Source: Syntrophomonadaceae bacterium (GTDB taxonomy: Bacteria > Bacillota > Dethiobacteria > DTU022 > UBA8154). From it: a stretch of 64,000 nt of DNA. The DNA lies in the NCBI GenBank assembly GCA_003563895.1, contig PWTK01000029.1:2378-66377 (forward strand), given 5' to 3'. Positions 14,125-62,100 of this stretch are shown piece after piece. The first letter of the stretch is position 1. Each line of letters opens with the position of its first letter. The notes beneath the pieces were generated by a model, which was given only the letters and a program-made list of their open reading frames with translations, was not told where the DNA came from and did no database searches. A program made the translations under genes and the position numbers.

Positions 14125-14138
14125 TCTTTCTCACCTCC

Positions 14139-37449: not shown

Positions 37450-37580
37450 CACCCGGATAAGCCGGAACCGTATACGTTGAATGTCAAAATGCCCTTCCCA
37501 AAGGCAGAATAAACAGCTCTCGCGAGTACGCTTGAAAAAGTTATGCCATATTTACAGAGAAATGGAGAACGAGGGGCCTA
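37450..37580 (+). repeat. Repeat family A, copy A4 (its end overlaps the hisG stop codon)
   Basis: cacccggataagccggaacc...ttgaatgtcaaaatgcc...gcttgaaaaagttatgccatatttacagagaaa...ggggcctaa. Confidence 0.7.
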
Positions 37581-38450
37581 AGGGATGATTTTGTTCAAGG
37601 AAAATTCGATGATCCCTTCGGCTCCAGCCTCCTTGGCCTTAAACACCAGGTCCCTCACCAGTTTTTCGCTGACCACGGTCTCTACGGCCACCCAGCCTTC
37701 CTCGTGCAGTTCGGAAATGGTAGGGCGGCGCAGCGCCGGCAGCAGTTCAAGCAATTGCGGCAGATTTTCTTTGCTCACGTTCATTTTCAGGACCACCTTC
37801 TCCTCGGCCATGAGGGCCCCTTCCAGGAGGGTGACGATCTGCCGGATCTTGTTTCTTTTCCATTCCTCCTCCCAGCTTATGGGGTTTGCAATGAAGCGCG
37901 GGGTGGATTCCAGGATGGTCTCCACAATACGCAGGTTGTTGGCCTTCAAGGAACGGCCGGTTTCTGTGAGTTCGGCAATGGCATCCACCAGGGTAGGCGG
38001 TTTTACCTCCGTCGCGCCCCAGGAAAACTCCACCTCTGCTTCAATGTCATGGCGGCGCAAAAATTGCCGCGTGACCTCAACCAGCTCGGTGGCGATCTTT
38101 TTGCCCTGCAGATCTTTAACGCTCTGGATCTCCGAGTCCCGGGGAACCGCGATCACCAGCTTCACAGGCCTCAATCCCTGGCGCGAGTAGGTCAGCTCGG
38201 CTACTTCGACCACCTTTGCTCCCGTTTCCTCGATCCAATCCTTCCCTGATATGCCCACATCAAGGACGCCATTTTCCACATAGCGGGGGATTTCCTGCGC
38301 CCTGATCAGCGTGCAATCAAGCTCTTCATCGTCTACAAAGGGGAAGTAAGAGCGCTCATTCACGTAAATGTTAAAGCCGGCCTTTTTGAAAATGTCGAGG
38401 GTGGTTTTTTGCAGGCTTCCCGCCGGAAGCCCCATTTTAAGCAATTTCAT
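37578..38450 (-). CDS. hisG: ATP phosphoribosyltransferase, long form
   Basis: ORF 37578-38459. LKMGLPAGSLQ...LIRAQEIPRYVENGVLDVGISGKDW plus a C-terminal regulatory domain. Start is ATG 38450 or TTG 38459. Confidence 0.88.
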   Translation of the reverse strand: MKLLKMGLPAGSLQKTTLDIFKKAGFNIYVNERSYFPFVDDEELDCTLIRAQEIPRYVENGVLDVGISGKDWIEETGAKVVEVAELTYSRQGLRPVKLVIAVPRDSEIQSVKDLQGKKIATELVEVTRQFLRRHDIEAEVEFSWGATEVKPPTLVDAIAELTETGRSLKANNLRIVETILESTPRFIANPISWEEEWKRNKIRQIVTLLEGALMAEEKVVLKMNVSKENLPQLLELLPALRRPTISELHEEGWVAVETVVSEKLVRDLVFKAKEAGAEGIIEFSLNKIIP

Positions 38451-38482
38451 GGAGATCAACGCTCCTTCCCGGCGTGCTTTCT

Positions 38483-39856
38483 TTAGCGACCGGCCTTTGG
38501 TTTTGGATAGGATTTCAAAACCTCCACCGTTCTCTGGATCTCTTCTTCCGGCAGGACATAATCGACCAGCTCGCCGTTTAAGTAAGAATCATAGCCCGAG
38601 AGATCCAGCATCCCGTGGCCGCTGAGATTGAAGAGAATGGTCTTCTGCTGCCCTTCCTCCTTCGCCTTCCGGGCCTCCTCGATCACTGCCGCCACGGCAT
38701 GGTTTGTTTCCGGGGCACAGATGAGGCCTTCGGTGCGGGAAAAGATCACTCCCGCCTCGTAAGACTGCAGCTGTCCATAAGCGCGAGCCTCGATCAGGTT
38801 ATCGGTCAGCAGCTGGCTGACCAGGGGGGACATGCCGTGGTACCTCAGCCCGCCGGCGTGGATGGGCTTGGGCATAAAGTCGTGGCCCAGGGTAAACATG
38901 GGCAGCAGAGGTGTCGTAGCAGCGGTGTCGCCGAAATCGTAGGAAAACGGTCCCCGCGTCAGCGTTGGGCAGGCCGTGGGTTCCACCGCCAGCACCTGGC
39001 AATCCTTGCCGTATATTTTATCGCGGACAAAGGGAAAGGAGATGCCGGCGAAATTGCTGCCGCCCCCGACACACCCCACCACCACGTCAGGGTATTCGCC
39101 CAGCGCCTCCATCTGCCTTTGCGCTTCCAGTCCGATGATTGTCTGGTGCAGCATGACATGGTTTAAAACGCTGCCCAGGGAGTACCTGGCATCATCACGG
39201 GTCACCGCTTCTTCAATGGCTTCGCTGATGGCAATTCCCAAGCTGCCGCTGCATTCGGGGTCCTGTTCCAGCATTTTGCGTCCGAAGCTGGTTTCATTGC
39301 TCGGGCTGGGGACGCATTCAGCCCCCCAGGTGTTCATCATCATTCTCCGGTAAGGTTTCTGGTTAAAGCTGACGCGCACCATGAACACCTTGCATTCCAA
39401 CCCGAACATGGCGCAGCCAAGGCTCAAGGCACTCCCCCACTGCCCGGCTCCTGTTTCCGTACAGAGCCGTTTAATGCCGAAAGTCTTGTTGTAATAGGCC
39501 TGGGCGATGGCCGTGTTCGGCTTGTGGCTCCCCGCCGGGCTAACCGACTCGTTTTTATAATAGATCCTGGCAGGAGTGCCCAGGTACTCTTCCAGCCGCC
39601 GCGCCCTGTGAAGCGGGGTGGGCCTGTAAATAAGGAGTTTGTCGAGCACCTCTTCCGGGATATTGATCCATCTCTCCGTACTTACTTCCTGCTCGATGAG
39701 GTTCATGGGAAAAATTTTCGCCAAATCCTCCGGCCCGATGGGCTGACCCGTGGCGGGGTTTAACGGGGGCTGCAGGGGGTTGGGCAGATCGGCCTGAATA
39801 TTGTACCACTGCCTGGGGATCTCCTTTTCCGGCAAAAAAACCTTTTGCTCTTCCAT
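38483..39856 (-). CDS. trpB: TrpB2-type tryptophan synthase beta-like PLP enzyme
   Basis: ORF 38483-39862, with start probably ATG 39856 (6 nt after AAGGAGGAGG). PLP-lysine motif AGSHKPNTA; length and N-terminal extension match the TrpB2 type. Confidence 0.88.
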
Positions 39857-39904
39857 CTCCATCCTCCTCCTTCTTCGTGGTCGTGGTGATTGGCTGCAGC
39901 AGCC

Positions 39905-40228
39905 AAATAAAAAAACCGCCCAATCAGGGACGGGTAAAAGCCCGCGGTGCCACCCACTTTACCCCGGCCGCGGTCTCGCCGGGATCGCTCTGGTTTGGGC
40001 AGAAACCTGGAAGACCAGCCTTCTGGCCCATGTCGGGTAACGGCGACCATCCGTTCCGACCTACTGGCTCAAGAAAATCTCGCTTTCGGCCGGACACCTC
40101 CGGGGCCCATTCGAACGGAGAGAAGGTGCCCGGTTTCCAGCTCCCGGCCTGAGGGCCGGGACCGGGCTCTCTGTTACCCCTCTTCCCGAACTACTACTCC
40201 CCTTCAAGGGTTTTTAGGAAGAAATTTG
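39905..40228 (-). promoter_or_regulatory. T-box riboswitch leader, probable Trp (UGG) specifier, with an intrinsic terminator
   Basis: Minus strand has AGUA and AGAGAG boxes and a specifier-loop context GAA-UGG-G. T-box AAAGUGGGUGGCACCGCGGGC (39939-39959), then hairpin CCGUCC/GGGCGG plus U7 (39908-39935). Confidence 0.85.
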
Positions 40229-41814: not shown

Positions 41815-41874
41815 ATGGCGGGTAAGATAAGCGTTTCCCCCTGACTGACAGGTGTGGTACCCCGCAAATGAGAT

Positions 41875-42168
41875 GAGACATCCATGAAGCTTCGCTTCAC
41901 CATCAGGGGATGAAAATTGACCCGCCCCGGGCAGCGGGTCAATCAAAAGCGACTTGCATTTTCAGATTAGACACCCATGCTCCCCCAAAGTGGGGGCACC
42001 ATCAGAAGGATGAAAATGGGTTGCATTAGCAGCAAACGTTTGTATGAATTTGTTCCATTCTCAGGGTAGACCCTCATGCCCCCACAATACGGGGGCACCA
42101 TCAGAAGGATGAAAATCAATTGCTGTTTGGCGACGGACTTTTGAGCGACATGTTCTATTTCCAGAGTA
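41875..42168 (+). repeat. Tandem array of about 3 units of the ~97-bp repeat family C
   Basis: Units start near 41875, 41967 and 42066. Each has a G/C hairpin (e.g. gccccc-acaatac-gggggc, 42078-42096), then caccatcagaaggatgaaaat and ...gttcYattYYcagRgtag. Confidence 0.8.
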
Positions 42169-42354: not shown

Positions 42355-43116
42355 TTAAGGAAGCTGGCTGGCTGCGCCGTCGCAAAACGCCAGGACGCTG
42401 TCCCCCAGGGATCGGGCATTGTAACCGCCTTCCAGCACGGCAAACAGGCGCCCCCTGCACTTTTCTTTTGCAAAAGCACCCAACAGCTCCCCCATGGAGC
42501 CGTAATCTTTTGTATGCAGCATGCCGCCCCAGTCGTTCACATGGCGGTCAAAACCGGCGGAAACCGCCACAATATCGGCCTCCGCTTTTTGCAGGTAGCT
42601 ATCCAGGTTGCTCACAAAGGAACTGCTGTTGGCGCCCTTCACATGCCAGAACGAAACGGCGGGATTGCCGGTAAAAATGTTGGAAGTACCGTCTCCAAAG
42701 TGCAGGTCGAAATCGATGATTAAGGCCTTTTTGACAGATTTTTCATACAGCAGCTTTTCCAGGGCAATGGCCACGTTATTGAAATAACAAAAACCCCAGC
42801 AGGAAGAGGGGCTGGCGTGATGACCGGGCGGCCGGCACAGGGCAAAAGAGGCGCGGCCGGCCAAAGCCAGCGCTGATGATTTAATGGCCGCACCGGCTGC
42901 CAGCAGGGCCATGCGGTAAACCGGGGAGTCCATGCGCACATGCTCCAGGTGGCCGGGAGTATGAACCCGGAGCACATCTTCTTCGCTGCAAGGAAATGGC
43001 GTAACAAAGGGATACTTTCCCTGCAGCAGATTTAGGGCGTGGTCCAACCTGCCGGGAGAAGCTGCCGGATCGCTGGTATACGTCTCGCGAAATAATTCGT
43101 GGAACACGATTTTCAT
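42355..43116 (-). CDS. Compact histone-deacetylase/AcuC-family deacylase
   Basis: 253-aa ORF with motifs RPPGHHA, DFDLHFGDGT, GFD and EGGY. Confidence 0.85.
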   Translation of the reverse strand: MKIVFHELFRETYTSDPAASPGRLDHALNLLQGKYPFVTPFPCSEEDVLRVHTPGHLEHVRMDSPVYRMALLAAGAAIKSSALALAGRASFALCRPPGHHASPSSCWGFCYFNNVAIALEKLLYEKSVKKALIIDFDLHFGDGTSNIFTGNPAVSFWHVKGANSSSFVSNLDSYLQKAEADIVAVSAGFDRHVNDWGGMLHTKDYGSMGELLGAFAKEKCRGRLFAVLEGGYNARSLGDSVLAFCDGAASQLP

Positions 43117-43209
43117 TCTCTGCGGTGTAAGAAGACCTTCCCCCTTTCTTGATGAATACCTCGTATACTTACATAGCCGCTGCGGCGAGTCTGCGGGCAG
43201 CGGTCATGT

Positions 43210-44349
43210 TCAGTACTCTTTTATTTCTTCCTCCCCCCTTAATCCCCGGAGTGCCCCTTCGGCCAGGGCCTGCATTTCATTATCCTGGATGATGCGCAGA
43301 GGCCCCAGAAAAGCAACCCTTTTTTCAATCCCTTCCATCACCCTCTTTGACCCCGTCATCGCTCCCGTTAAAATAACCGCATCCACTTTTCCTTCCAGCA
43401 CCGTTGACATTGCACCGATCTCCTTGGCCACCTGGTAAGCCATGGCTTCAATTGCCCGGCCTGCTTCCTCTGAACCTTCCTGTGCCCACTGCTCGACTTC
43501 GCGGAGATCGCCTGTGCCCAGGTAGGCAATCAGCCCTCCCTGTCCCACAAATCTTCGGCGCAGCATTTCCCTTGAATCCTGGAGACACTGTTGAAAAGTT
43601 TCCAGGGTTAATTCAGGCTGGGAAGAAGCGGAATATTTTTCTTCCAGATATGCCAGCACGTAATCCACCACGTTTAAAAGGGGCAGCACCCCCGTTCGTT
43701 CGGGAGTAAAAGGACCCTCGCTCAGGCCGTGGCTGGCATCGACCACCCTTCCCCGGAGGTGTGCCCCTACCGTGATCCCCCCGCCCAGGGGCGCTACGAT
43801 GAAATTGCTGCTGCCGTATTCCAGTCCCATCTCGGCAGCTGCCTGCCGGGCCGCCGCTTTTTGGCTCAGGGCATGGAAGGCACTGCTGCGCTCCATCAGG
43901 GGAGTGCCCGAAAACCTGGCCAGGTCGGAAAATTCATCAGTGCTGGGAGGGTCAACGGTCAGGGCAGGACACGAAAAGCGTTCCGCAAGCCGGTACGCGA
44001 TTACCGGGCCCAGCGAGGAAGGATGACTGCCGTGCCGTTCCGAGAGGAGATCCCGGCACATTGCTTCGTTGATGTTATAAACCCCTGCCGGCAGCGGCTT
44101 CATAAGCCCTCCACGGCTTACAACCGCCGACCAGGAAACTTTTTCCCCACCGTAGAGCTGCAGAAAACCGGTAACCTGATCCTCCCGCCTTTCCAATTGA
44201 TCCTGGAGACCGGCGCCGCTTTCGAAATCGAATTTATCTTCTGCCACCACCTCTTCTTCTCTAAAAATGGCCACCCGACTTGAAGTCGACCCGATGTTCA
44301 GGACAAAAAGCAGGTTTCCTCTGGACTGGCCAACATTGGAATCAGACAT
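43210..44349 (-). CDS. buk: Butyrate kinase family (acyl-phosphate:ADP phosphotransferase)
   Basis: 379-aa ORF. N-terminal VLNIGSTSSRVAIF is the ASKHA phosphate-1 motif; length and sequence are butyrate-kinase-like. Confidence 0.85.
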   Translation of the reverse strand: MSDSNVGQSRGNLLFVLNIGSTSSRVAIFREEEVVAEDKFDFESGAGLQDQLERREDQVTGFLQLYGGEKVSWSAVVSRGGLMKPLPAGVYNINEAMCRDLLSERHGSHPSSLGPVIAYRLAERFSCPALTVDPPSTDEFSDLARFSGTPLMERSSAFHALSQKAAARQAAAEMGLEYGSSNFIVAPLGGGITVGAHLRGRVVDASHGLSEGPFTPERTGVLPLLNVVDYVLAYLEEKYSASSQPELTLETFQQCLQDSREMLRRRFVGQGGLIAYLGTGDLREVEQWAQEGSEEAGRAIEAMAYQVAKEIGAMSTVLEGKVDAVILTGAMTGSKRVMEGIEKRVAFLGPLRIIQDNEMQALAEGALRGLRGEEEIKEY

Positions 44350-44355
44350 TTCTTT

Positions 44356-45168
44356 TCACGCCCCCAAAGCCGAGGCTGCCAGAGCAACCTCTACGTGTTT
44401 ATGCGCCGGGGAGATAAAAGAGGGATGGATCACCAGCGGTACGGGAGCGCCGAGCAGCACTCCGGCCGTGGGCATTTTCCCCAGCCAGGAAAAAAACTGG
44501 GAAAGGGCGTAAGCCGATTCAATATCGGGACAGAGCAAAATATCCACTTCCCCCGGCACATTTGATTTTATCCCTTTGCGGAGAGCTGCCTCGCTGGAGA
44601 GCGCCGTATCGATATCCAGGGGCCCCTCTACCTCCGCGCTAAACTGACCTCGCTGGCCCATTTTTGACAAGGCGGCGGCTTCTACGGTCGAAGGGAGGGC
44701 CGGATTTACGGTTTCCAGCGCCGAAAGGGCCGCCACCAGCGGGTTTGTCATGCCAAGCTTCGCTGTCAAGCCCAATACCTGCTCCAGGATATGGATCTTT
44801 TCGCGCAGCGTAGGGAAATTGTGAATGTACGTGTCCGCGGCAAAGAGGAGTTTTCCCCGCCGGGAATCTTCAAAGACCGAAACAAAGCACAACCTTCTAA
44901 GATCGACGCCACACTCTTTAATGATTACCGTCCAAAAGTCCTCCAGGGACATTCCGCCCTGCACCAAAACCCCGGAGCCTGCTGTAAAAATTTCCTGAAA
45001 CGCTTTTTTTACCGCCTCTTCAGGCGATGCGCCCCCCTCTTCTTTCACCAGGTAACCGCTGCCTTTCAGCTCATTCACCAGTAGAGCCTGGTCATTTTGG
45101 GGGGGAGGGGCAAAAATCACCGCTTCGCCCTTTGCAGTTGAACGGAGGATTTCGGAAAATGTTTTCAT
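44356..45168 (-). CDS. Phosphate acyltransferase (PTA_PTB family) paralogue
   Basis: 270-aa ORF that resembles the C-terminal two-thirds of phosphate butyryltransferases. 6-nt gap to buk. Confidence 0.7.
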   Translation of the reverse strand: MKTFSEILRSTAKGEAVIFAPPPQNDQALLVNELKGSGYLVKEEGGASPEEAVKKAFQEIFTAGSGVLVQGGMSLEDFWTVIIKECGVDLRRLCFVSVFEDSRRGKLLFAADTYIHNFPTLREKIHILEQVLGLTAKLGMTNPLVAALSALETVNPALPSTVEAAALSKMGQRGQFSAEVEGPLDIDTALSSEAALRKGIKSNVPGEVDILLCPDIESAYALSQFFSWLGKMPTAGVLLGAPVPLVIHPSFISPAHKHVEVALAASALGA

Positions 45169-45183
45169 TGTTTTAGAAATGCC

Positions 45184-46086
45184 CTACCTCCTTTCGGCCT
45201 CATCGAGCCGTTTTTTGCGCTCTGCAACCACAAGGCCCAGGGCCAGCCCCGTATAGATCTGATCCGCTCCGTCGGAACGAGAAGGAATAATCACCGGCCC
45301 CCGGGAGCACATCACCACGGAAGCCCGATTTACATCAAGGAAAAAGTCCAACTTCACAATAATATTGCCGGTGTCGAGGTGAGGGATCAGGATAATATCC
45401 GGGAGCGCTTCGGATCCACCGCCGAGCCAATGCTTCAGATCCGCCCCCCATTCCAACCTGCAGGAAACCCCCTCCTCGGCAAAATACGTCTCTATTTTCT
45501 CGGCATCGCTTTTGGAAGCCACATTTTGATCGATTTCCCTGGCCGCAGTCAGAACGAGCACCCGGGGAAGTTCATAGCCGAACAATTTCATAAAATGAAC
45601 AGCACGCCGCAGTATATCGGCTTTTGTTTGCCAATCGGGCTTGATGTTCACTCCGGTGTCGGTCATCAAAATCAGGCGGTTTTCCTTTACCAGCTCCCAA
45701 AGGGAAAAAACTGCTATGCGTTCTCCCCCACCCGTTTGCTTTTCTTTTTCAATGATGGCCCGATAAATGTAAGAGGTGGGGATCTGTCCTTTGCAGACCA
45801 AGTCCAACTCCCCCTCAAAAAGCATGGCCAGGCCTGTTCGGGAAGCTTCCAGGCGGCTGAGCCGGTCGATAATCTCCACGTTCGACAGGTCAAACCCGGC
45901 CTGGTTCGCATAAGAGACAATTTTCCCTTCTTCTCCGATGAAGACAGGTTGAATCAATTCATCCCTCGCCGCCTTTTCGACACCCCCCAGCACCTCCCTA
46001 TCAGCCGGCAAAAGAAACGCCGTCCGCTGGGTGCCAATGCGGAGCGCTTCCTCTTCGATTTGTTTAAAATTTGTTATTTTTTGCAT
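45184..46086 (-). CDS. ptb: Phosphate butyryltransferase-like (PTA_PTB family)
   Basis: ORF 45184-46122, with start revised to ATG 46086 (GGGAGAGGAAGGG upstream). MQKITNFKQIEEEA... is Ptb-like throughout. Confidence 0.85.
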   Translation of the reverse strand: MQKITNFKQIEEEALRIGTQRTAFLLPADREVLGGVEKAARDELIQPVFIGEEGKIVSYANQAGFDLSNVEIIDRLSRLEASRTGLAMLFEGELDLVCKGQIPTSYIYRAIIEKEKQTGGGERIAVFSLWELVKENRLILMTDTGVNIKPDWQTKADILRRAVHFMKLFGYELPRVLVLTAAREIDQNVASKSDAEKIETYFAEEGVSCRLEWGADLKHWLGGGSEALPDIILIPHLDTGNIIVKLDFFLDVNRASVVMCSRGPVIIPSRSDGADQIYTGLALGLVVAERKKRLDEAERR

Positions 46087-46118
46087 GACCCTTCCTCTCC
46101 CTGTTTTAGACTGCCTCC

Positions 46119-47099
46119 TCAAAATGCCTTCAAGTGGATGATCCTGAGGCTGTAGCGCCCGAGCCCAAACGTGCTGCCCGCCCCCAGGTTGGTAAATTCG
46201 CCGAGCTTCAGGATCGGAGCATATTCCGCTGCCGAGCCCTCGTAGTGGACTTCACCGATAATCCCTTCCGGCCTGGAACTGCGCCCCGGAAACTGCTCCC
46301 AGGAAACAAACCGGGTCTGATCGCGGATAATTTCCACCCTGGCGGCGTCTCCCAAATATTTGCCGTAATCTAAATCCAGCTCTTTCAGCCCGTGATATTG
46401 ATAATAAAGCAGCGATATCCTTCTCAACAGCGCCCGGAGCACTACCTGGAAGGCGGGTCTTCTCAGTTTTTCTTCCTCCAACTGAAGGAGCAGGGGAGTT
46501 TGAAATTTCAAGGAAAACCTTTGGGCCGGCGGTTGCCTGGCAGCCCATTCTTCTATTTGGCTACCGGTAATGACAGCCTTATCAAATTTCTTTTGCACCG
46601 CTTCCCCGGAGCTCGGGGAAAACAGGGAACATCGCAGGCCGGAAAAAGGGTTGTTGAGCCTGGCTTCCTGCAGAAAGGCTCCCGTGCGCCGCCCCCTGGG
46701 CATGCTCCCCAAAAAAGTCTGCAGGCTTTTTAGCAGCACCGCAAGGTGTCCTATGCCGCTGCCAAAAAGGGTTAAGCCAAAAGCAAATTTTTCCCCTTCG
46801 AGATAACTGGTTTTCTTCTCCGGGGGAAAGCTCCAGGCCAGGGGAGGGACAACAGGAAAAAGCGGATGTGTCTTTTTGGCCTGCAGCTGCTCCGTTTCAT
46901 ACATCAGGGCAAAGGTGCAGCTTTGGAAAAGCGGGCAGCCACTGCAGACCTCGCGACTGATCCTGCAGGATTCGCTTCTTAAGGCTTCTTTAAAATCTTC
47001 ATCCCACAGCAGGGAGGCTTTTTCCTTGGGAAGCGTACCCATCTTTTCATGTATGGAAAAAACAAACTGACAGTTTGCCAGCCGAAAGTCCTGGATCAT
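46119..47099 (-). CDS. cas6: Orphan Cas6-type RAMP protein (CRISPR_Cas6/PF10040-like)
   Basis: ORF 46119-47156, with start revised to ATG 47099. Cys cluster CSGCPLFQSCTFALMYE, LKFQTPLLL, and a C-terminal G-rich loop GEFTNLGAGSTFGLGRY as in type III Cas6 proteins. Confidence 0.7.
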   Translation of the reverse strand: MIQDFRLANCQFVFSIHEKMGTLPKEKASLLWDEDFKEALRSESCRISREVCSGCPLFQSCTFALMYETEQLQAKKTHPLFPVVPPLAWSFPPEKKTSYLEGEKFAFGLTLFGSGIGHLAVLLKSLQTFLGSMPRGRRTGAFLQEARLNNPFSGLRCSLFSPSSGEAVQKKFDKAVITGSQIEEWAARQPPAQRFSLKFQTPLLLQLEEEKLRRPAFQVVLRALLRRISLLYYQYHGLKELDLDYGKYLGDAARVEIIRDQTRFVSWEQFPGRSSRPEGIIGEVHYEGSAAEYAPILKLGEFTNLGAGSTFGLGRYSLRIIHLKAF

Positions 47100-47229
47100 T
47101 GTTATTTCCTGCTCCCCGTGTGGAAAAATGATTAAAGAGTGGCATTTTCCATACAATTCTTTCTGTCAGCCCGATTTTCCTGCCTCTTCAGATTTTTATT
47201 GCTTCGCTAGTGAATGTCGGTTAATTTTA

Positions 47230-47238
47230 TGTTATAAT
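47230..47238 (+). promoter_or_regulatory. Extended -10 element (TGtTATAAT) upstream of clpB
   Basis: tgttataat lies in an AT-rich region about 100 nt upstream of the clpB ATG. Confidence 0.45.
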
Positions 47239-47338
47239 TTTTTATGGAGATACAATTATTACCTTTATAAACATTAGAAGATATACAAATATTGTAATTC
47301 AAAAGGAGGTGAAACCTGGCTGCAGGCCAGGTAAAATC

Positions 47339-49957
47339 ATGGATTTAAACCGCTTAACAACCAGGGCACGCGAAGCAGTGGCCGCATCTCAAAACCTCGC
47401 CGCCCGGTATCACCACCAACAAATTGATTGCGAACACTTGCTGCTGTCCCTGCTGGAACAGGAAAACGGCCTGGCACCTGATTTGCTGAACAAGGCCGGG
47501 CTGGATGCACGAGAGATAAAAAGCCGGGTGGAATCTTACCTGGCAAAACAACCGAAAGTCTATGTAAAAGAAGGAGCCGAACAGATATATCTCAGCCCCC
47601 GCCTGGCGAGGGTGCTGGATAAATCCCAGGAGGAAGCGGCGTCTTTAAAAGACGAATACATCAGCACGGAGCACCTGCTCCTGGGATTGTGGGAAGTGGG
47701 TGAAAGCGAAGCGGCGCGTATTCTAAAACAAGCCGGCCTGGAACGCACCCGCCTGCTTCAGGCCCTGCAGTCGATTCGCGGTCACCAGAGGGTTACCAAC
47801 CCCGATCCCGAAGGCACCTACCAGGCCCTGGAAAAGTACGGCCGGGATCTCACCCGGGTGGCCGAGGATGGCAAGCTGGATCCTGTCATAGGGCGTGACG
47901 AAGAGATCCGCCGCGTTGTTCAGGTCTTATCGCGCCGCACAAAAAATAACCCGGTCCTCATCGGGGACCCCGGCGTGGGGAAGACCGCCATCGCGGAAGG
48001 GCTTGCCCAGCGTATAGTTAGAAACGACGTGCCCGAGGGCTTGAAAGAAAAGCGCATTTTTGCGCTGGATATGGGCGCCCTGCTGGCAGGGGCCAAATAC
48101 CGCGGTGAATTCGAAGAGCGCCTGAAAGCGGTGCTCAAGGAAATTCAGGAATCGGACGGAGAAATCATCCTTTTCATCGACGAGCTGCATACCGTCGTCG
48201 GAGCCGGTGCAGCCGAAGGCGCCATGGATGCCAGCAACATTTTAAAACCCATGCTGGCAAGGGGTGAGCTGCACTGCATCGGAGCCACCACCCTCACCGA
48301 GTACCGCAAGCACATTGAAAAGGATGCCGCGCTGGAGAGGCGTTTCCAGCCGGTTCTCATCCGGGAACCGGATATCAACGATTCCATCTCTATCCTGAGG
48401 GGCTTAAAAGAGCGCTATGAAGTCCACCACGGCGTGCGAATCAAGGATTCAGCCCTGGTAGCTGCTGTCACGCTCAGCCAGCGCTATATCACGGACCGCT
48501 TTCTTCCGGACAAGGCCATTGACCTGGTGGACGAAGCGGCTGCCCTGATCAGGGCCGAAATCGACAGCATGCCGGTGGAGATGGACGAGGTTACACGGCG
48601 CGTCATGCAGCTAAAAACGGAAAAAGAGGCCTTGAAAATGGAAACCGATGAAAGCTCGCAGAAACGGCTGGAAGAAGTGGAAAAAGAGCTGGCCGAACTG
48701 GAAGAAGAAGCCGCTCGGTTGAAAGCACGCTGGGAAGAGGAGAAGGAGCACATCTCCAGGGTCAGGAATTTAAAAGAAGAAATTGAAAACACCAAGCTGG
48801 AGATGGAAAAAGCGGAAAAAGCATACGAGCTGAACAGGCTGGCCGAACTGAAGTACGGGCGGATGCCCGAACTCGAGCAGCAGCTGAAAGAAGCGGAAGA
48901 ACAGCTTTACCAGGGAGGCCTGCGGCTGCTGAAAGAAGAAGTGGACGAAGAAGATATCGCCGCTGTCGTCAGCCGCTGGACGGGGATCCCCGTCAGCAAG
49001 CTCCTGGAGGGCGAACGCCAGAAAATACTGCAGCTGGAAGACAGGCTCCACGAGAGGGTGGTAGGGCAGCACGAAGCCGTCCAAGCCGTCAGCGAAGCCG
49101 TTTTAAGGGCTCGTTCGGGCATCAAAGACCCCGACCGGCCCATCGGGTCCTTTATCTTCCTGGGGCCGACCGGGGTAGGAAAGACAGAACTGGCCCGTTC
49201 TCTGGCCTACACCCTTTTCGATGACGAAAATGCCCTGATTCGGCTGGACATGTCGGAATACATGGAAAAACACTCCGTGGCGAGATTGATCGGGGCACCG
49301 CCGGGCTATGTGGGCTTCGAAGAGGGGGGCCAGCTGACCAACGCCGTCCGCAAAAGGCCCTTTTCCGTTCTGCTCTTCGATGAGATCGAAAAAGCCCACG
49401 GCGACGTCTTCAATGCCCTTCTTCAAATTTTGGATGACGGACGCCTGACAGACTCGCAGGGTCGGACGGTAGATTTTCGCAACACCGTCATCATCATGAC
49501 GTCCAACCTGGGCAGCCAGTTGATTACCGAAGCCGAAAGCCACAGCGAAAGCTCCTTTGAACGGGTTCGGGAACAGGTTTTGGCCCAGCTGCGTTCCTTT
49601 TTCCGCCCCGAGTTCCTGAACCGGGTAGACGAAATCGTGGTTTTCCATCCCCTGGAGATGGAGCACCTGCGGCAGATCGTAAAAATCCAGGCAGGCCGCT
49701 TGTTAAAGCGCCTGGAAGATCAGCACATGAGGCTGGAACTCACGCCGGAGGCGGAAGAGTACCTTGCAGAAGTCGGGTATGACCCCGTATACGGCGCCAG
49801 GCCGCTGAAAAGAGCCATACAGAAAGAGCTCGAAACGCCGCTGGCTCGAAAACTGCTGGGAGGGCAGTTTAAGGCGGGAGACACCATCCTGGTTGACCGG
49901 GAAAACGGAAGCCTGGCATTTACAAATAAGAGGAAGGCAGCAGTCCAGGAGGCGTAA
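47339..49957 (+). CDS. clpB: ATP-dependent chaperone/disaggregase ClpB
   Basis: ORF 47309-49957, with start revised to ATG 47339 ([14 protein letters not shown]). Two AAA+ Walker A motifs ([16 protein letters not shown]) and a long middle coiled coil. Confidence 0.95.
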
Positions 49958-50126: not shown

Positions 50127-52151
50127 CTACCAAACACCAACACCAATGATACCGAACTGCAGGTAAAACAGGAATACCAGCGCAATCCCGAGCATGCTCA
50201 TGATCAGCAGAACGTCAAAATCGATGTTCATGAGGTTGACAAAACGGAGCACCCTCGATTCACCGGGCCGGTAATCGAGCCCCTGCAGCAACCGGAAACC
50301 AAAGGTAAATATTCCGCTGAAAATGTTCCCGAAAAACCTCACAATGCCCAAAACAACGAAACCGAGGCCGTTCCAGAAAGCGACAACTGCCCGCCCCACC
50401 TTGGAAGCCATGAATTCCTGTCCAAGCCAGTAGGGGACATCCGCCCTGAAAAGACCGGTCTTGAGTCCGATAAAAAAGGCCAGGGAACCCAGGCCTATCA
50501 CAATAAACTGCGGAATGAGATCATATGCCGCGAAAAAGTTAATACCGACAATATGATCTTCAATAAAATGCGGGTCGAAGATAAAATAATGCAGCGTGGG
50601 AACGATCAAGCTTTCCAGCATGAAGCCCGGATTAATGCCAATAAAAACAATGGTTGCGGCCAGCATGGCCATCCCAATTTTCATGGCCAGCGATTCGGGC
50701 TTCAGTTTTTCAATCTTCTCTTTGCTCTCCGGCGGAGGTTCCCGCAGGAAGGTCAGGTAAATAAACTTCAGGTAATACAGCACCGTACCGGCAGCGGTAA
50801 TCATAAAGATCCGCTCAGCCTCAAGAAGAGCGGCCACACCATAGTGCTCATAAGCTTCCACAATAGCGTGGTGCAGCAGCACCTTGCTGACATAGCCGTT
50901 AAAAAGGGGCACACCGGCAATCCCCATGGCGGCGATGAACACCACCACCGTGGTAAAGGGCAGTTTTCGCCAGAGCCCCCCCAGGTTGTACATGTTCAAA
51001 TCATCCAGCTTGTAGGCGATCACGCCGGCCACGAGAAAGAGGGCGGACTTGAAAAGAGCATGGTTGACGATATGGTAAGAAGCGCCGGCCATACCCATCG
51101 CTCCGTCGTATTTCAGGTAACCCGCCACACCGACCCCCACCAGGATAAAGCCCATCTGGCTGATGCTGCTGCATGCCAGCATCTTTTTGATATTTTCCTG
51201 GATGAGGGCCAGCACCACACCGAGAAACATGGTACAGATCCCGATCCAGATGATCACATGCCCCATGGTGGAAACAACCGCCCAAAAATCCTCGAAGTAC
51301 TGCGGCAGCAGTTTTGCCACAGTGGGATCGATGGTGGGCACCAGCAGCACATTGGTCACACGGATGATCCCGTATGCGCCGGTTTTGATCATGATGCCCG
51401 AAAGCAGGGCGCTGGCAGGCGCCGGCGCCACGGGATGAGCCCTGGGAAGCCAGATGTGAAGGGGAGCCATCCCCGCTTTAATCCCAAATCCGATGATCAT
51501 GAGTATTGCCGCCAGAGGGATGATGCTGTCCATCCCTTTCAGGATGACCGTTCCCGGAAGTATATCCAGGGTGCCGTTGCGGTAAAACAGAAGCGCCAGC
51601 CCGGTCAGAATGCTCATCCCCCCGGCTACACCCAGGTAGAGGTAGAGTTCTCCAGCGCTGTATGCTTCCTCCATCTGGGTGTGCACAACCAGGGCGTAAG
51701 AAGCCAGCGACATGATTTCGAAAAACAGCAGCAAGCTCAAAAAATCCCCGGCCAGCGGCACCCCCACCGTCCCCGACATAGTCAGCAGCAATAAACTATA
51801 AAAGCGCCCTCGGTTTTCTTCGTGGGTCATGTAAGACAGGGCAAATATCGTCGCGGCCAGCCAGACAAAACAGGATATCAAGGCAACGATCAGGCTGAAA
51901 CCGTCCACCCGAAAGGTCAAGTTAATCGGTGATACGATCTTGAAAAGCTCAAAGGTAATGACCTGCCCCTTCGTCACCACCTCCGGATACATGAGGGCCA
52001 CCACACACAGTGCAGCGGCCGTGGCCAGGGTGGCAACAAAATTCCTCCATCGTTCCGAATAAAAGGAAACCAGGGCCACCAACCCGGAAGCTACTGCCGG
52101 GATCAAAACGGCCAGCAGGGGCAGGTAGGAAACATCGATCAATTGGGGCAT
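50127..52151 (-). CDS. Antiporter-like large subunit (NuoL/MrpA-type), paralogue of 3334-5772 without the repeat region
   Basis: 674-aa polytopic ORF with motif HIWLPRAHPVAPAPASALLSG. Its C-terminal anchor NIDFDVLLIMSMLGIALVFLFY matches that of the paralogue. Confidence 0.8.
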   Translation of the reverse strand: MPQLIDVSYLPLLAVLIPAVASGLVALVSFYSERWRNFVATLATAAALCVVALMYPEVVTKGQVITFELFKIVSPINLTFRVDGFSLIVALISCFVWLAATIFALSYMTHEENRGRFYSLLLLTMSGTVGVPLAGDFLSLLLFFEIMSLASYALVVHTQMEEAYSAGELYLYLGVAGGMSILTGLALLFYRNGTLDILPGTVILKGMDSIIPLAAILMIIGFGIKAGMAPLHIWLPRAHPVAPAPASALLSGIMIKTGAYGIIRVTNVLLVPTIDPTVAKLLPQYFEDFWAVVSTMGHVIIWIGICTMFLGVVLALIQENIKKMLACSSISQMGFILVGVGVAGYLKYDGAMGMAGASYHIVNHALFKSALFLVAGVIAYKLDDLNMYNLGGLWRKLPFTTVVVFIAAMGIAGVPLFNGYVSKVLLHHAIVEAYEHYGVAALLEAERIFMITAAGTVLYYLKFIYLTFLREPPPESKEKIEKLKPESLAMKIGMAMLAATIVFIGINPGFMLESLIVPTLHYFIFDPHFIEDHIVGINFFAAYDLIPQFIVIGLGSLAFFIGLKTGLFRADVPYWLGQEFMASKVGRAVVAFWNGLGFVVLGIVRFFGNIFSGIFTFGFRLLQGLDYRPGESRVLRFVNLMNIDFDVLLIMSMLGIALVFLFYLQFGIIGVGVW

Positions 52152-58422: not shown

Positions 58423-59871
58423 TTAAAGTTCCAGGAGGCCTTTGTGGTTGCTGCGAATTTCCTTTTCAAGCTCCGCGCCCACATAATGCTGGTGCTCTCC
58501 CCCCAAAATCCGCTGGGCAATCTCTTCCGCCGTGGTCCAGCTGTCCTTGCCGCCCGCAGCTTCCCAGGCCTGGTAGCTTCTGCGGTCGCTGACCCGCGGG
58601 AAGAACGATTCGGTGCGCATATATTTGACCGTGTGGGGCTCAGCCAGGAAGTTCCCCCCGGGCCCCACGGCAGCGATCACGTCGACGGCCAGGGTATCGT
58701 CATTAATTTCTACCCCGCGCAGGGCGCGCAGGCACCCTCCAATGATGTCGTTATCGATGATATACTGGGCATAAGAAGCGGTCATGGCCCCTTCCAGCAA
58801 GCCTGCCGCCTCGTGGATAAAGTTGCCGCCAGCCAGGGCTGCCAGCAGGCAGGTGGTGGCGCTCTCATGAGCCGCCTGGGCGTCGGGAATCTTGGAATCG
58901 GTCGTTCCCACCGTAATGTAGCTGGGAATACGGTAGTAATAAGCGATTTGAGAGATGGCGGCATTCATCAGGCCCGATTCCACGCTGCCCATCAGAAAAG
59001 ACATCGTGCGGAGATCCATGGTTGAGGGAACGGCGCTGTAGAGAACGGGCGTTCCCGGATTGACCAGCTGGGAGAGAATAACACCCATCAGGGCTTCCGC
59101 ATTCTGCTGCACCAGGGTGCCGGCCAGCGTAATCGGTGCAGTGGCACCGGCAGTCGGAGCCGTAGAGGTGGCCAGGGGCAACCCCATGGAAGCTACTTCC
59201 ATCAAGAGCTGGGCATAAAGCCTGTCAAATTTTAAAGGGCTGACAATACTGGTAATAAACCCGACAAAGGGTCGGCGCTGGAGCTGCTCCATCCCGCCGG
59301 CAATGGCAGACGCAATCTCTACAACTTCTTTCAATCCCTCGTGAGAATAAACGCCCCCCATGACCGGCTTGGGGCTGTGCAAAAATGCGGGGAAAAAGCG
59401 GTTAATATCTACCTTGTCTACCGGGGCATCGTGGGGATATACCGGCACGATAAAAAAATCGACATACTCCAGCTTATCCACCAGGGAGGCAATATCGGCG
59501 ATATCCCTGGCCGTGGATTTCCTTTTTTTCCTGTCCAGGGCCAGGACGTTCAAGGCAGTTCCGCCCGTTCCAAAGTGAACCCTGGTCCCGCCGAGGATGA
59601 TCTCCCGGTCCTGGCCGAGGCCGTAAAAGGTAAATTCCCCCGGGGCCTGCTTGATGCAGCGTGAAACCAAATCTCGGGGGATATAGGCCCTTTTCAAATC
59701 TAAATCCACCTTGGCCCCATTCTTTTCCAGCAGCTCCAGCGCGGGGGGATAGTTAACCTCAAACCCCACCTCCCACAGCACCTTCATGGTAGACTCGTGG
59801 ATCTCTTTAATTTCTCCCTCGGATAATATCTTGTACTTTCCTCCAAAATAGCTTCTTCTTCCGGAAGACAT
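58423..59871 (-). CDS. MttB-superfamily methyltransferase, non-pyrrolysine type (glycine-betaine/quaternary-amine type plausible)
   Basis: ORF 58423-59979, with start revised to ATG 59871. It is MttB-like throughout and has no in-frame TAG. Confidence 0.8.
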   Translation of the reverse strand: MSSGRRSYFGGKYKILSEGEIKEIHESTMKVLWEVGFEVNYPPALELLEKNGAKVDLDLKRAYIPRDLVSRCIKQAPGEFTFYGLGQDREIILGGTRVHFGTGGTALNVLALDRKKRKSTARDIADIASLVDKLEYVDFFIVPVYPHDAPVDKVDINRFFPAFLHSPKPVMGGVYSHEGLKEVVEIASAIAGGMEQLQRRPFVGFITSIVSPLKFDRLYAQLLMEVASMGLPLATSTAPTAGATAPITLAGTLVQQNAEALMGVILSQLVNPGTPVLYSAVPSTMDLRTMSFLMGSVESGLMNAAISQIAYYYRIPSYITVGTTDSKIPDAQAAHESATTCLLAALAGGNFIHEAAGLLEGAMTASYAQYIIDNDIIGGCLRALRGVEINDDTLAVDVIAAVGPGGNFLAEPHTVKYMRTESFFPRVSDRRSYQAWEAAGGKDSWTTAEEIAQRILGGEHQHYVGAELEKEIRSNHKGLLEL

Positions 59872-60029
59872 CCTTAATCCGCCCTTTCCCGGGTTGCTTG
59901 TATGTAAATTTTTGGCCCTGGTGAGAGATCGCGGAACTGTGCGCAAATAGTATTGAGACGATGATTCTCTCCACAGCAATGCCTTTCTTAACGCTGGCCT
60001 GCCAGACCGGGATACCGCATTCCAGCGCG

Positions 60030-61121: not shown

Positions 61122-61904
61122 CTACCACAGCTTTCCAGACACATGCAGGGCTCCTCCCTGCACCCTGGGTACCACCCTCTCCATCACCCTGCCCAGAACA
61201 ACGAGTAAAGCGGTATAAGCGGGTATGGTGACAATCCCTTCAACAATGCGGGGCGGAACGGTAACCACCCTCATTACACCGAAAAGCGTTTCGATGAAGT
61301 ATGGCACCATGAAGATGTCTACTACCAAAAAAGTGGTGCAAGCAGCCAGGAAAAGGGGGAAGAATCCCACTTCCTGGCGGCCGCGCACAGCCATCACGAT
61401 AATCAGCCCGGGGATGATGCCCCGCAGCGCAGCGGTCATGGTGAAGTGGGGCATGTAAGCCCCCAGGGGGCTGACAAAGTATCCCACCAGGTCACCGATT
61501 CCTCCTACCAGTCCTCCGGCCAGCGGGCCCATGAAAACACCGGCCAGAATTACGGGAAGGGTGCCGATGCCGATGCGCATCCCCTCCACCGCTCCCAGGG
61601 GTATGCGCAAACTTAAAACCCTCTCCAGGATAACGTTTAACGCAATGAGTAAAGCGATTCGGGTCAGCATCTGGTTGTCGAGGGCTTGTCCTCTGCCGCC
61701 TGCTTTGTTTGTCAATATTGCAGTGCCAAAAACAGCGCCAACAATCCCGGCAATGATCAGGCTGGTTTCATCCTCCAACCTCAGCAGTTGCGGCATGCTC
61801 AACATTCCGGTATGTTCCAGCACTGCATACAGCATCATCGCCAGTCCGGCGGTTAACAACAGGGAGCCGGCCAAAAGCCTAATAACGTTTATTTTGCCAG
61901 GCAC
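61122..61904 (-). CDS. folT: Folate-family ECF transporter S component with an N-terminal two-helix extension
   Basis: ORF 61122-62072, with start revised to GTG 61904 (7 nt after AAAGGAGGTG). The core from MLTRIALLIALNVILERV is FolT-like and it sits behind a THF riboswitch. Confidence 0.75.
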   Translation of the reverse strand: MPGKINVIRLLAGSLLLTAGLAMMLYAVLEHTGMLSMPQLLRLEDETSLIIAGIVGAVFGTAILTNKAGGRGQALDNQMLTRIALLIALNVILERVLSLRIPLGAVEGMRIGIGTLPVILAGVFMGPLAGGLVGGIGDLVGYFVSPLGAYMPHFTMTAALRGIIPGLIIVMAVRGRQEVGFFPLFLAACTTFLVVDIFMVPYFIETLFGVMRVVTVPPRIVEGIVTIPAYTALLVVLGRVMERVVPRVQGGALHVSGKLW

Positions 61905-61990
61905 AAAAACACCTCCTTTCTTCAAGGATGGGGCTAGCTGCCACATCCAAGAGAAAAGAGGTGAAATGAATAAATCTTTCGCTCTTGATG

Positions 61991-62100
61991 TGGCAGCGGA
62001 GGCGGTGTCATAACGCAGGCGCCCGTCATGCGGGCGCCTTTCGTCTAAGGGCAACCTCCCATCCCTTAGCACTTAACGCATGACACCTACTCTGCCAGCG
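61991..62100 (-). promoter_or_regulatory. THF (tetrahydrofolate) riboswitch aptamer
   Basis: Minus strand has GGCAGAGUAGGUGUCAUGCGUUAAGUG...GGGAUGGG...ACGAA...GCGUUAUGACACCGCCUCCGCUGCC, with P1 and the conserved AGAGUAG/GCGUUAAGUG/GGGAUG blocks. Confidence 0.85.

What the first reader, a model, noticed from the sequence alone, without database searches (positions are those of the whole stretch)
42355..47099. Orphan Cas6-type RAMP protein encoded as first gene of a ptb / ptb-like / buk (/HDAC) operon
The 326-aa protein (46119-47099) has the features I associate with type III-style Cas6 (CRISPR_Cas6, PF10040). These are an N-terminal Cys cluster CSGCPLFQSCTFALMYE, a ..LKFQTPLLL.. strand and the C-terminal glycine-rich loop GEFTNLGAGSTFGLGRY. 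No CRISPR array or other cas gene occurs in the 64 kb. Its stop is 32 nt from the ptb start. The following gaps are 15 nt (to ptb-like) and 6 nt (to buk), all on one strand, and an HDAC-like deacylase follows 93 nt later. A pre-crRNA endonuclease homologue embedded in an acyl-phosphate/ATP-generating operon has no obvious rationale. It may process this operon's mRNA or local repeat RNAs, or it may have been exapted.
Basis: partly seen in the sequence, partly recalled or inferred. Interest (0 to 1): 0.65.

Follow-up and report, generated by a model that had tools for sequence, protein, structure and literature searches.

The report
Domesticated orphan Cas6 in Bacillota
A true Cas6-fold protein sits alone, far from any CRISPR system, at a fixed chromosomal site in a small group of Firmicutes and has lost the residues its CRISPR-linked relatives conserve, so it has probably been recruited for another RNA-related job; its link to the ptb/buk genes is recent and lineage-specific.

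Summary
A 326-aa protein (46119-47099, minus strand) is a genuine Cas6. It scores 56 bits on PF10040 (cutoff 25) and 2e-52 on a full-length PADLOC Cas6 model. Its AF2 model (pLDDT 93) matches only Cas6 structures. It is followed at 32/15/6/93 nt by two PTA_PTB paralogues, butyrate kinase and an HDAC-type deacylase. The 64 kb holds no CRISPR array and no other cas gene.

The ptb/buk linkage is not the conserved feature. The protein belongs to a nine-member clade (bootstrap 40/40, median identity 33%). All context-bearing loci (window plus seven others) lack cas genes, and most share the order mrp – clpB <> cas6-like – (HDAC) – hisG. ptb-ptb-buk lies between cas6-like and the orthologous HDAC only in the window and one 61%-identical relative.

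The clade keeps the fold, a family-wide Cx6Cx2Cx5C cluster, the loop glycines and a basic pI. dN/dS is about 0.1. It retains only 0-4 of 11 near-invariant family residues.

Best reading: an exapted Cas6 derivative acting outside CRISPR immunity as an RNA-binding or RNA-processing factor of unknown target. Main rival: a trans-acting Cas6 serving a distant CRISPR locus. I rate it a new variant of a known kind, of moderate interest.

The parts
46119..47099 (-). cas6-like gene (326 aa), member of the orphan 'Cas6L' clade of the PF10040 / AF_1859_N Cas6 subfamily
   Evidence: PF10040 56.3 bits. PADLOC Cas6 PDLC01477 2e-52 over the full length. AF2 pLDDT 93. Top 37 Foldseek PDB hits are all Cas6. 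Clade membership.
46917..46967 (-). codons for C45-x6-C52-x2-C55-x5-C61, a four-Cys cluster inserted in the alpha1-beta2 region of the N-terminal RRM
   Evidence: Invariant in the clade and in CRISPR-linked relatives. Same spacing as the endonuclease III / MutY [4Fe-4S] loop (my own knowledge). Weak profile hit to EndoIII chains, E 0.3.
46152..46202 (-). codons for the C-terminal glycine-rich loop (GEFTNLGAGSTFGLGRY)
   Evidence: G306, G312 and G314 are retained. The family-conserved K307 (95% of other members) is replaced by Ala.
47100..47308 (.). AT-rich divergent intergenic region between cas6-like and clpB; presumed promoters; 10-bp hairpin at 47118-47154 in the cas6-like leader
   Evidence: Sequence read. 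Inverted repeat. No consensus promoter was called on the minus strand.
45184..46086 (-). PTA_PTB-family acyltransferase paralogue A (300 aa)
   Evidence: PF01515 51.9 bits. Far below every NCBIfam ptb/pta cutoff, about 150 bits against 282-413. Homologues are annotated phosphate butyryltransferase, many in Syntrophales MAGs.
44356..45168 (-). PTA_PTB-family acyltransferase paralogue B (270 aa)
   Evidence: PF01515 69.9 bits. Below the NCBIfam cutoffs.
43210..44349 (-). butyrate kinase (379 aa)
   Evidence: TIGR02707 349.7 bits against a cutoff of 289.1; NF002834 385.9 against 222.
42355..43116 (-). compact HDAC-type Zn deacylase (253 aa), orthologous to the gene next to cas6-like in related loci
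   Evidence: PF00850 153 bits. PGHHA, DFDLHFGDG, SAGFD and EGGY motifs are invariant across the five orthologues, which are 60-81% identical. PDB relatives are HDAC6 and bacterial deacylases.
47309..49957 (+). clpB, divergently transcribed; a syntenic anchor of the locus
   Evidence: translation. ClpB lies next to cas6-like in L009/L014, L013, L021 and L022.
50127..52151 (-). Mrp/Mbh-type antiporter large subunit; a syntenic anchor
   Evidence: An Mrp cluster lies beside the locus in L009, L013, L022 and L023.
37578..38459 (-). hisG; a syntenic anchor on the other side
   Evidence: HisG lies downstream of cas6-like/HDAC in L009, L012 and L013.

Best explanation
The gene encodes a domesticated (exapted) Cas6.

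Shown:
- It is a two-RRM Cas6-fold protein of the PF10040 / AF_1859_N subfamily.
- Its nearest motif-retaining relative is the Cas6 of a type I cas operon with an adjacent array (Halobacteroides-type locus).
- It belongs to a well-supported clade that sits without cas genes or arrays at a conserved chromosomal site (mrp - clpB <> cas6L - HDAC - hisG) in Dethiobacter-related Bacillota.
- It is under purifying selection.
- It has replaced the subfamily's near-invariant residues in three places: helix alpha1 (R33/G34/G37), the C-terminal beta-hairpin loop (R269-Q274, partly deleted) and the glycine-rich loop (K307). It has also acquired its own invariant signature (W89, E94-K95-K96-T97, W185, K298).

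Inferred:
- Those three elements are the ones that build the active-site and RNA-binding pocket in TtCas6A. The protein therefore no longer recognises or cuts a CRISPR repeat the way its relatives do.
- It remains basic and keeps the Cys4 module (probably an Fe-S or Zn site) and the loop glycines. It most likely still binds RNA, now a host RNA, as a binding or processing factor.
- In the window's lineage a ptb-like/ptb-like/buk module lies between cas6L and the ancestral HDAC neighbour. The five genes now form one transcription unit driven from the cas6L promoter. That co-expression is a secondary, lineage-specific arrangement and not the key to the protein's function.
For: - Family and fold.
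- CRISPR-linked relatives: L002 type III with an array; L003 with cas3; L004 with cmr genes; L016 with cas1; L026 with cas3-cas8-cas7-cas5-cas6 plus a 37-nt repeat array.
- Clade: NJ monophyly 40/40 bootstraps, identities 29-61%.
- Motifs: 0-4 of 11 family signature residues retained, against 8-10 in 121 of 146 homologues. The clade has its own invariant residues.
- Contexts without cas genes or arrays: window, L001, L009/L014, L013 and L012, L021, L022 and L023. No arrays in any of them.
- Selection: dN/dS about 0.11 against L001, similar to the neighbouring PTB-B gene.
- Charge: pI about 9.1 and net charge about +8, the same as CRISPR-linked members.
- HDAC orthology, 60-81% identity.
- Active-site geometry of TtCas6A (helix alpha1, beta10-beta11 loop, alpha5-beta12 loop): PMC3902920.
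Against: - No RNA ligand was found. The flanking intergenic regions of the orphan loci share no hairpin or repeat.
- Cas6 active sites are notoriously plastic (PMC3902920; reviewer discussion in PMC3150331). Loss of subfamily motifs therefore does not prove loss of nuclease activity or of repeat binding.
- I could not examine the rest of any host genome for a remote CRISPR-Cas locus.
- Conserved synteny within one lineage may reflect descent and not function.
- The mapping of lost residues onto the TtCas6A pocket rests on predicted secondary structure and alignment, not on a superposition.
Confidence: 0.55

Rival explanations
1. It is a normal, active Cas6 that works in trans for a CRISPR array and effector module elsewhere in the genome. 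Many type III loci rely on a Cas6 encoded elsewhere.
For: - TtCas6A (TTHA0078) is encoded outside any CRISPR locus yet cleaves the R1 and R3 repeats (PMC3902920).
- The 2025 classification states that most type III systems use a Cas6 supplied in trans (PMC12669027).
- The protein keeps the fold, the G-loop glycines, the Cys4 cluster and a basic charge.
Against: - 0-2 of 11 subfamily-invariant residues are retained, including five Arg/Lys.
- The gene occupies the same housekeeping site across relatives only about 33% identical, whereas CRISPR-Cas loci turn over quickly.
- No cas gene lies within about 10 kb in eight loci, nor in the 64-kb window.
- Its score on the Cas6 model is 177 bits, against 282-304 for CRISPR-linked members.
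Confidence: 0.2
2. One reading: the protein is dedicated to the ptb/buk operon, for example processing or stabilising the polycistronic mRNA to set the stoichiometry of the acyl-phosphate enzymes.
For: - Tight spacing (32/15/6/93 nt) and no internal terminator above chance.
- The same five-gene order with 29/16/-8/58-nt spacing in L001 at 61% identity.
Against: - ptb-like and buk are absent next to the gene in the six other context-bearing loci (L009/L014, L012, L013, L021, L022, L023). There it is followed by HDAC, a CN-hydrolase on the opposite strand, acyl-CoA dehydrogenase, trpB-like or small genes.
- No hairpin sits in the 32-nt junction.
Confidence: 0.1
3. The protein no longer handles RNA. 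The Cas6 scaffold with its Cys4 cluster has become a redox/Fe-S protein or a protein-binding partner, for example of the HDAC-type deacylase encoded beside it.
For: - The orthologous HDAC is adjacent or nearly so in 5 of 8 loci.
- The conserved RNA-contacting residues are lost.
- The Cys4 motif has EndoIII-like spacing.
Against: - The protein remains strongly basic, like its RNA-binding relatives.
- HDAC is missing from L012, and from L021 and L023 as far as those contigs reach. It is separated by an opposite-strand gene in L013.
- The Cys4 cluster is also present in CRISPR-linked members, so it is not a new function.
Confidence: 0.1
4. It is a decaying remnant of a lost CRISPR-Cas locus with no function.
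For: Orphan position; lost family motifs; it is the least conserved gene of the cluster (61% against 67-81%).
Against: - Intact ORFs in nine lineages about 33% identical, with clade-specific invariant residues.
- dN/dS about 0.11.
- High-confidence fold prediction.
Confidence: 0.03

Closest known systems
[quoted passage not shown] P0023 in CP003359.1; P0004-P0006)
   Same: Same domain architecture (AF_1859_N + CRISPR_Cas6), two-RRM fold, invariant Cx6Cx2Cx5C cluster, G-rich loop glycines, similar length and basic charge.
   Different: Not next to cas genes or arrays. It lacks R33/G34/G37, R204, the RYSxRQ loop and K307, which those proteins conserve at 90% or more. It has its own signature residues and a fixed housekeeping neighbourhood.
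Thermus thermophilus TtCas6A (TTHA0078), an active Cas6 encoded outside CRISPR loci
   Same: A cas6 gene away from any CRISPR locus. Structural match in Foldseek (4c8y/4c97, E about 1e-10).
   Different: TtCas6A keeps its catalytic His37 and Arg22 and cleaves the host's repeats (PMC3902920). The window protein has Asp/Glu at the positions aligned to its subfamily's R33 and partly conserved H38, and no host array is known.
Non-catalytic Cas6 homologues of Pyrococcus (P. horikoshii protein, PDB 3QJJ; P. furiosus Cas6-related protein, PDB 3UFC)
   Same: Cas6-fold paralogues that have diverged in the active site. They appear among the structural matches, and one is cited as a 'non-catalytic Cas6 homolog' in PMC3902920.
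   Different: Those belong to CRISPR-rich archaeal genomes and to a different Cas6 subfamily. They have no Cys4 cluster, and no conserved non-CRISPR synteny has been reported for them.
Known CRISPR-derived modules recruited for other roles (Streptomyces cas5-8 + STAND, haloarchaeal HRAMP, type IV, CASTs)
   Same: Cas/RAMP proteins maintained without adaptation genes or arrays (PMC8730458).
   Different: Those are multi-gene effector-derived modules, mostly still defence- or MGE-related. Here a single Cas6 gene is fixed among housekeeping and metabolic genes.
Clostridial ptb-buk operon
   Same: A PTA_PTB-family gene or genes followed by a bona fide butyrate kinase on one strand.
   Different: Two tandem, highly divergent PTA_PTB paralogues that fail all NCBIfam ptb/pta cutoffs, flanked by cas6L and an HDAC-type deacylase.

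Membership tests
Cas6 (PF10040 / COG5551 / AF_1859-type subfamily) | Passes the curated family HMM | tested here: met
   PF10040 56.3 bits against a cutoff of 25. Precomputed PF27225 AF_1859_N + PF10040. PADLOC Cas6 PDLC01477 2e-52 over positions 2-294 of 296.
Cas6 (PF10040 / COG5551 / AF_1859-type subfamily) | Tandem ferredoxin/RRM fold with a C-terminal glycine-rich loop | tested here: met
   AF2 pLDDT 93, pTM 0.91. Foldseek top 37 PDB hits are all Cas6, TM (target-normalised) 0.55-0.68. G306, G312 and G314 conserved.
Cas6 (PF10040 / COG5551 / AF_1859-type subfamily) | Subfamily-invariant basic and glycine residues (G28, R33, G34, G37, R204, W264, R269, S271, R273, Q274, K307) | tested here: not met
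   The window protein keeps 1 of 11 and the clade keeps 0-4. 121 of 146 homologues keep 8-10.
Cas6 (PF10040 / COG5551 / AF_1859-type subfamily) | Encoded with cas genes and/or a CRISPR array | tested here: not met
   None in the 64-kb window or in the flanks of seven related loci. The rest of the genomes could not be searched.
Cas6 (PF10040 / COG5551 / AF_1859-type subfamily) | Metal-independent endoribonuclease activity on CRISPR repeat RNA | not testable with these tools
   Needs biochemistry.
Cas6, TIGR01877 (cas_cas6 equivalog) | Score above the trusted cutoff | tested here: not met
   22.3 bits against 58.65. CRISPR-linked members of this subfamily score only 39-44 bits on the same-named PADLOC model PDLC00956, so this model does not cover the subfamily.
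[4Fe-4S] cluster loop of endonuclease III / MutY type | C-x6-C-x2-C-x5-C spacing with four invariant Cys | tested here: met
   C45, C52, C55 and C61 are invariant in 12 and 17 sequences and at least 97% conserved in 70. Weak profile match to EndoIII chains, E 0.3. The EndoIII spacing is from my own knowledge.
[4Fe-4S] cluster loop of endonuclease III / MutY type | Actually binds an Fe-S cluster | not testable with these tools
   Needs anaerobic purification and spectroscopy. Zn binding is an alternative.
Butyrate kinase (TIGR02707) | Score above the equivalog cutoff | tested here: met
   349.7 bits against 289.1.
Phosphate butyryltransferase (TIGR02706 / NF004472 / NF005837) | Score above the equivalog or subfamily cutoff | tested here: not met
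   Both paralogues score 114-150 bits against cutoffs of 282-413. Only the broad Pfam PF01515 is passed, so the substrate is uncertain.
Zn-dependent HDAC / deacylase (PF00850) | Family HMM plus catalytic His-His, Asp/His/Asp metal ligands and Tyr | tested here: met
   153 bits against 27.9. PGHHA, DFDLHFGDG, SAGFD and EGGY are invariant among five orthologues. The motif assignment is from my own knowledge of HDAC8-type sites.

The most novel reading that the evidence does not exclude
A lineage of Bacillota has permanently domesticated a Cas6 as a host RNA-binding or RNA-processing protein carrying an EndoIII-like [4Fe-4S] module. It would be a redox- or iron-sensitive post-transcriptional factor expressed divergently from clpB and, in some lineages, together with acyl-phosphate and lysine-deacylase enzymes. 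This would be the first case of a single RAMP protein recruited into core cell physiology independently of any CRISPR-Cas system. It would also reveal that a whole Cas6 subfamily, including CRISPR-linked members, is made of Fe-S proteins.
Probability: 0.25. Interest if true: 0.75.

Novelty: new variant of a known kind. Interest (0 to 1): 0.45.

Why it matters
Cas proteins recruited for non-defence roles are mostly known as multi-gene modules or on mobile elements. A single Cas6 kept for a long time at a housekeeping locus, with a remodelled RNA-binding pocket, would give a clean case of RAMP exaptation and a new candidate sequence-specific RNA-binding scaffold.

The family-wide EndoIII-like Cys4 motif also suggests that a whole Cas6 subfamily may carry an Fe-S cluster. 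I found no discussion of this in the searchable literature.

For annotation, the result warns that 'Cas6' calls by PF10040 or PGAP do not imply CRISPR activity. It also warns that the two 'ptb' genes here fall far below the equivalog thresholds.

Tried and rejected
1. A CRISPR array near the gene. The repeat finder, Rfam, TRF and my own finder were all negative in the window and in the orphan loci.

2. The tandem ~99-nt repeats downstream of the HDAC gene (41850-42165) as a Cas6L substrate array.
- The element is a dispersed repeat with a second copy at about 12.9-13.1 kb.
- It has no Rfam match and only weak folding z-scores.
- It is absent from all related loci.
- It is therefore not linked to the clade and is kept only as a side note.

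3. A shared hairpin or leader in the intergenic regions flanking the orphan genes. None was found.

4. Loss of positive charge as a sign of lost RNA binding. Rejected: pI and net charge equal those of CRISPR-linked members.

5. Defence-system membership of the ptb-like, buk and HDAC genes. No PADLOC hits.

6. Identifying the source genome.
- The Buk protein is not on record.
- Only the PTB-like protein matched an NCBI contig of 66,678 nt, without an organism name.
- The window's genome is not among the GTDB species representatives.

7. The first alignment was too divergent for the genome scan, the first tree script timed out, and the first bootstrap was spoiled by NaN distances. All three were redone.

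8. Literature searches for orphan/solo Cas6, Cas6 with Fe-S, Cas6 with butyrate kinase, and AF1859 found nothing describing this clade.

Full report
OBSERVATION

The minus strand of 42355-47099 carries five tightly spaced genes:
- a 326-aa protein (46119-47099)
- two PTA_PTB-family paralogues (45184-46086 and 44356-45168)
- a butyrate kinase (43210-44349)
- a 253-aa HDAC-type deacylase (42355-43116)

The ATG at 47099 is the real start. All homologues begin there, and a GGGGAGCAGG Shine-Dalgarno-like stretch precedes it. The ptb-like start at 46086 is confirmed by a 100%-identical 300-aa database protein. Terminator-like signals inside the cluster do not exceed chance, so co-transcription is likely but inferred.

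IS IT A CAS6?

Yes.
- Pfam PF10040 is passed at 56.3 bits against a cutoff of 25.
- The collection's precomputed Pfam domains for its homologues are AF_1859_N + CRISPR_Cas6.
- A full-length PADLOC Cas6 model matches at 2e-52.
- An AlphaFold2 model built on a 70-sequence alignment has pLDDT 93 and pTM 0.91.
- Its 37 best PDB matches are all Cas6 structures: MMB-1 Cas6 domain, S. thermophilus Cas6, TtCas6A/B, Sulfolobus and Pyrococcus Cas6.
- TIGR01877 is failed at 22 bits against 58.65. CRISPR-linked members of the same subfamily also score only 39-44 bits on the equivalent model, so that failure is uninformative.

IS IT ORPHAN?

Within the window, yes. Four methods found no CRISPR-like array. 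The array finder detected the array in control locus L002. None of the other 52 ORFs hits a Cas family in PADLOC.

WHAT THE RELATIVES SHOW

An exhaustive HMMER search found 3062 homologues, but only 12 at E<1e-30.

Distant relatives (21-33% identity) are ordinary Cas6 genes:
- L002 sits with cas10, RAMPs and an array.
- L003 is next to cas3.
- L004 is next to cmr genes.
- L016 is near cas1.
- L026 (CP003359.1) is the last gene of a cas3-cas8-cas7-cas5-cas6 operon, followed by a 37-nt-repeat array.

The window protein groups with eight other sequences (P0002, P0007-P0013). In a neighbour-joining tree of 146 homologues they form an exclusive clade with 40/40 bootstrap support and internal identities of 29-61%.

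Every member with usable flanks lies in a non-CRISPR neighbourhood:
- L001: cas6L-ptbA-ptbB-buk-HDAC.
- L009/L014: mrp-clpB(-)-IS200-like tnpA-cas6L-HDAC-hisG.
- L013 (a Dethiobacter MAG): mrp-clpB(-)-cas6L-CN hydrolase(-)-HDAC-hisG.
- L012: cas6L-trpB-like-hisG.
- L021: clpB(-)-DUF6788(-)-cas6L-acyl-CoA dehydrogenase.
- L022: mrp-clpB(-)-tnpA(-)-cas6L-HDAC.
- L023: mrp operon-cas6L.

The window has the same frame: mrp 50127-52151, clpB 47309-49957, cas6L, then HDAC, and hisG at 37578-38459.

The HDAC genes of the window, L001, L009, L013 and L022 are orthologues (60-81% identity, catalytic motifs invariant). The ancestral order was therefore mrp - clpB <> cas6L - HDAC - hisG. The ptb-like/ptb-like/buk trio lies between cas6L and HDAC only in the window and its 61% relative.

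WHAT CHANGED IN THE PROTEIN

I compared the nine clade members with 61 other subfamily members and then with 136.

The clade keeps:
- the four cysteines (C45, C52, C55, C61)
- P86 and G113
- G279 and G282
- the loop glycines G306, G312 and G314

It has lost positions that are 90-100% conserved elsewhere:
- G28, R33, G34 and G37 (the 'RGxFG' motif at the start of helix alpha1)
- R204
- W264
- R269, S271, R273 and Q274 (the 'RYSxRQ' motif in the C-terminal beta-hairpin loop, partly deleted)
- K307 in the glycine-rich loop

The window protein retains 1 of 11 and the clade 0-4, while 121 of 146 homologues retain 8-10. The clade has its own invariant residues: W89, E94-K95-K96-T97, W185 and K298.

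In TtCas6A the active site is a pocket formed by helix alpha1, the alpha1-beta2 loop, the beta10-beta11 loop and the alpha5-beta12 loop. Arg22 on alpha1 and His37 contact the scissile phosphate (PMC3902920). By predicted secondary structure the lost motifs fall in the corresponding elements. This mapping is an inference, because I could not superpose coordinates.

The gene is not decaying. dN/dS against L001 is about 0.11 (dS is saturated), the same as for the adjacent PTB-B gene. The protein also remains basic: pI about 9.1 and net charge about +8, indistinguishable from CRISPR-linked members. That fits continued nucleic-acid binding through a remodelled surface.

THE CYSTEINE CLUSTER

The motif C-x6-C-x2-C-x5-C is invariant across the whole subfamily, including CRISPR-linked members. 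It is therefore not a peculiarity of this orphan. From my own knowledge, the spacing is that of the [4Fe-4S] cluster loop of endonuclease III and MutY. A profile search gave only a weak hit to EndoIII chains (E 0.3). The cluster sits in the alpha1-beta2 region, where other Cas6 enzymes carry their catalytic histidine loop. I found no paper discussing an Fe-S cluster in Cas6.

MECHANISM

Most likely (confidence 0.55) this is an exapted Cas6 derived from a type I/III Cas6 of Bacillota. It has been fixed at a housekeeping locus and no longer serves CRISPR immunity, acting instead as an RNA-binding or RNA-processing factor on an unknown host RNA. In this genome it is expressed from its own promoter together with the acyl-phosphate enzymes and the deacylase.

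The pairing of ptb/buk with an HDAC-type lysine deacylase makes sense on its own, because acyl-phosphates acylate lysines non-enzymatically. That is an inference from general knowledge and was not tested here.

Rivals:
- A trans-acting Cas6 for a remote CRISPR locus (0.2). The precedent is TtCas6A, and type III loci commonly rely on a Cas6 supplied in trans.
- An operon-specific mRNA-processing role (0.1).
- A non-RNA role, for example with the HDAC (0.1).
- A relic (0.03).

The main weakness is that the rest of the host genomes could not be searched and no ligand was found.

COMPARISON AND NOVELTY

Orphan but active cas6 genes (TtCas6A) and non-catalytic Cas6 paralogues (Pyrococcus) are known. 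So are CRISPR-derived modules with non-defence roles (PMC8730458). I found no description of a single, vertically inherited, motif-remodelled Cas6 clade in a conserved non-CRISPR neighbourhood. Where databases name these proteins, they simply call them Cas6.

I rate it a new variant of a known kind with interest 0.45. The orphan Cas6 is real and evolutionarily interesting. The 'Cas6 inside a ptb/buk operon' puzzle, however, largely dissolves into a lineage-specific gene-order change, and the function remains inferred.

Noticed in passing
window 41850-42165 (minus strand) and window ~12895-13110 (plus strand): A dispersed ~300-nt element built of 2-3 tandem ~99-110-nt sub-repeats. Each sub-repeat reads 'ATTTTCATCCTTCTGATGGTG', then a GC hairpin, then 'CATGAGGGTCTA'. 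One copy lies in the convergent gap after the HDAC gene and one lies upstream of ORF 13306-14316. It has no Rfam match, only weak folding z-scores, and is absent from related loci. It may be a REP/MITE-like element or a small RNA family.
   Followed up: partly
whole PF10040 / AF_1859_N Cas6 subfamily (e.g. window residues 45-61; P0004, P0005, P0006, P0023): An invariant C-x6-C-x2-C-x5-C motif, the spacing of the EndoIII/MutY [4Fe-4S] loop, is present in CRISPR-linked Cas6 proteins of this subfamily too. No paper on an Fe-S cluster in Cas6 was found.
   Followed up: partly
L025 3467-4393 (P0129, GCA_036524135.1): The sister of the orphan clade is another Cas6-like gene in a non-CRISPR context (sdhA-sdhB-hypothetical-cas6L-ftsH). 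It shows partial loss of the family motifs (4 of 11 retained) and a neutral pI. It could stem from the same exaptation or from a second one.
   Followed up: partly
L009 9275-9836 and L022 3693-4248: An IS200-type Y1 transposase gene plus a ~53-aa ORF sits at the same position, between clpB and cas6L, in two clade members only ~35% identical in Cas6L. It may be an old, fixed (RAYT-like?) insertion.
   Followed up: no
window 39923-40216 (-) and 38483-39862 (-): A T-box leader (98 bits) lies upstream of a TrpB-like PLP enzyme gene next to hisG. The same trpB-like-hisG pair follows cas6L directly in L012.
   Followed up: no
window 58806-58905 (-) within ORF 58423-59979 (-): A pyrrolysine insertion sequence (PYLIS mttB, 69 bits) was detected. 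This implies a Pyl-decoding, methylamine-using Bacillota host.
   Followed up: no
window 61992-62096 (-): A THF riboswitch (81 bits) overlaps the 5' end of my crude ORF call 61122-62072. The true start of that gene is probably further downstream.
   Followed up: no
window 44356-46086 (-): The two tandem 'ptb' genes are highly divergent PTA_PTB paralogues, scoring about 115-150 bits against NCBIfam cutoffs of 282-413. The nearest annotated relatives of paralogue A are in Syntrophales and other deltaproteobacterial MAGs. Their substrate, and whether they form a heteromer, is open.
   Followed up: partly
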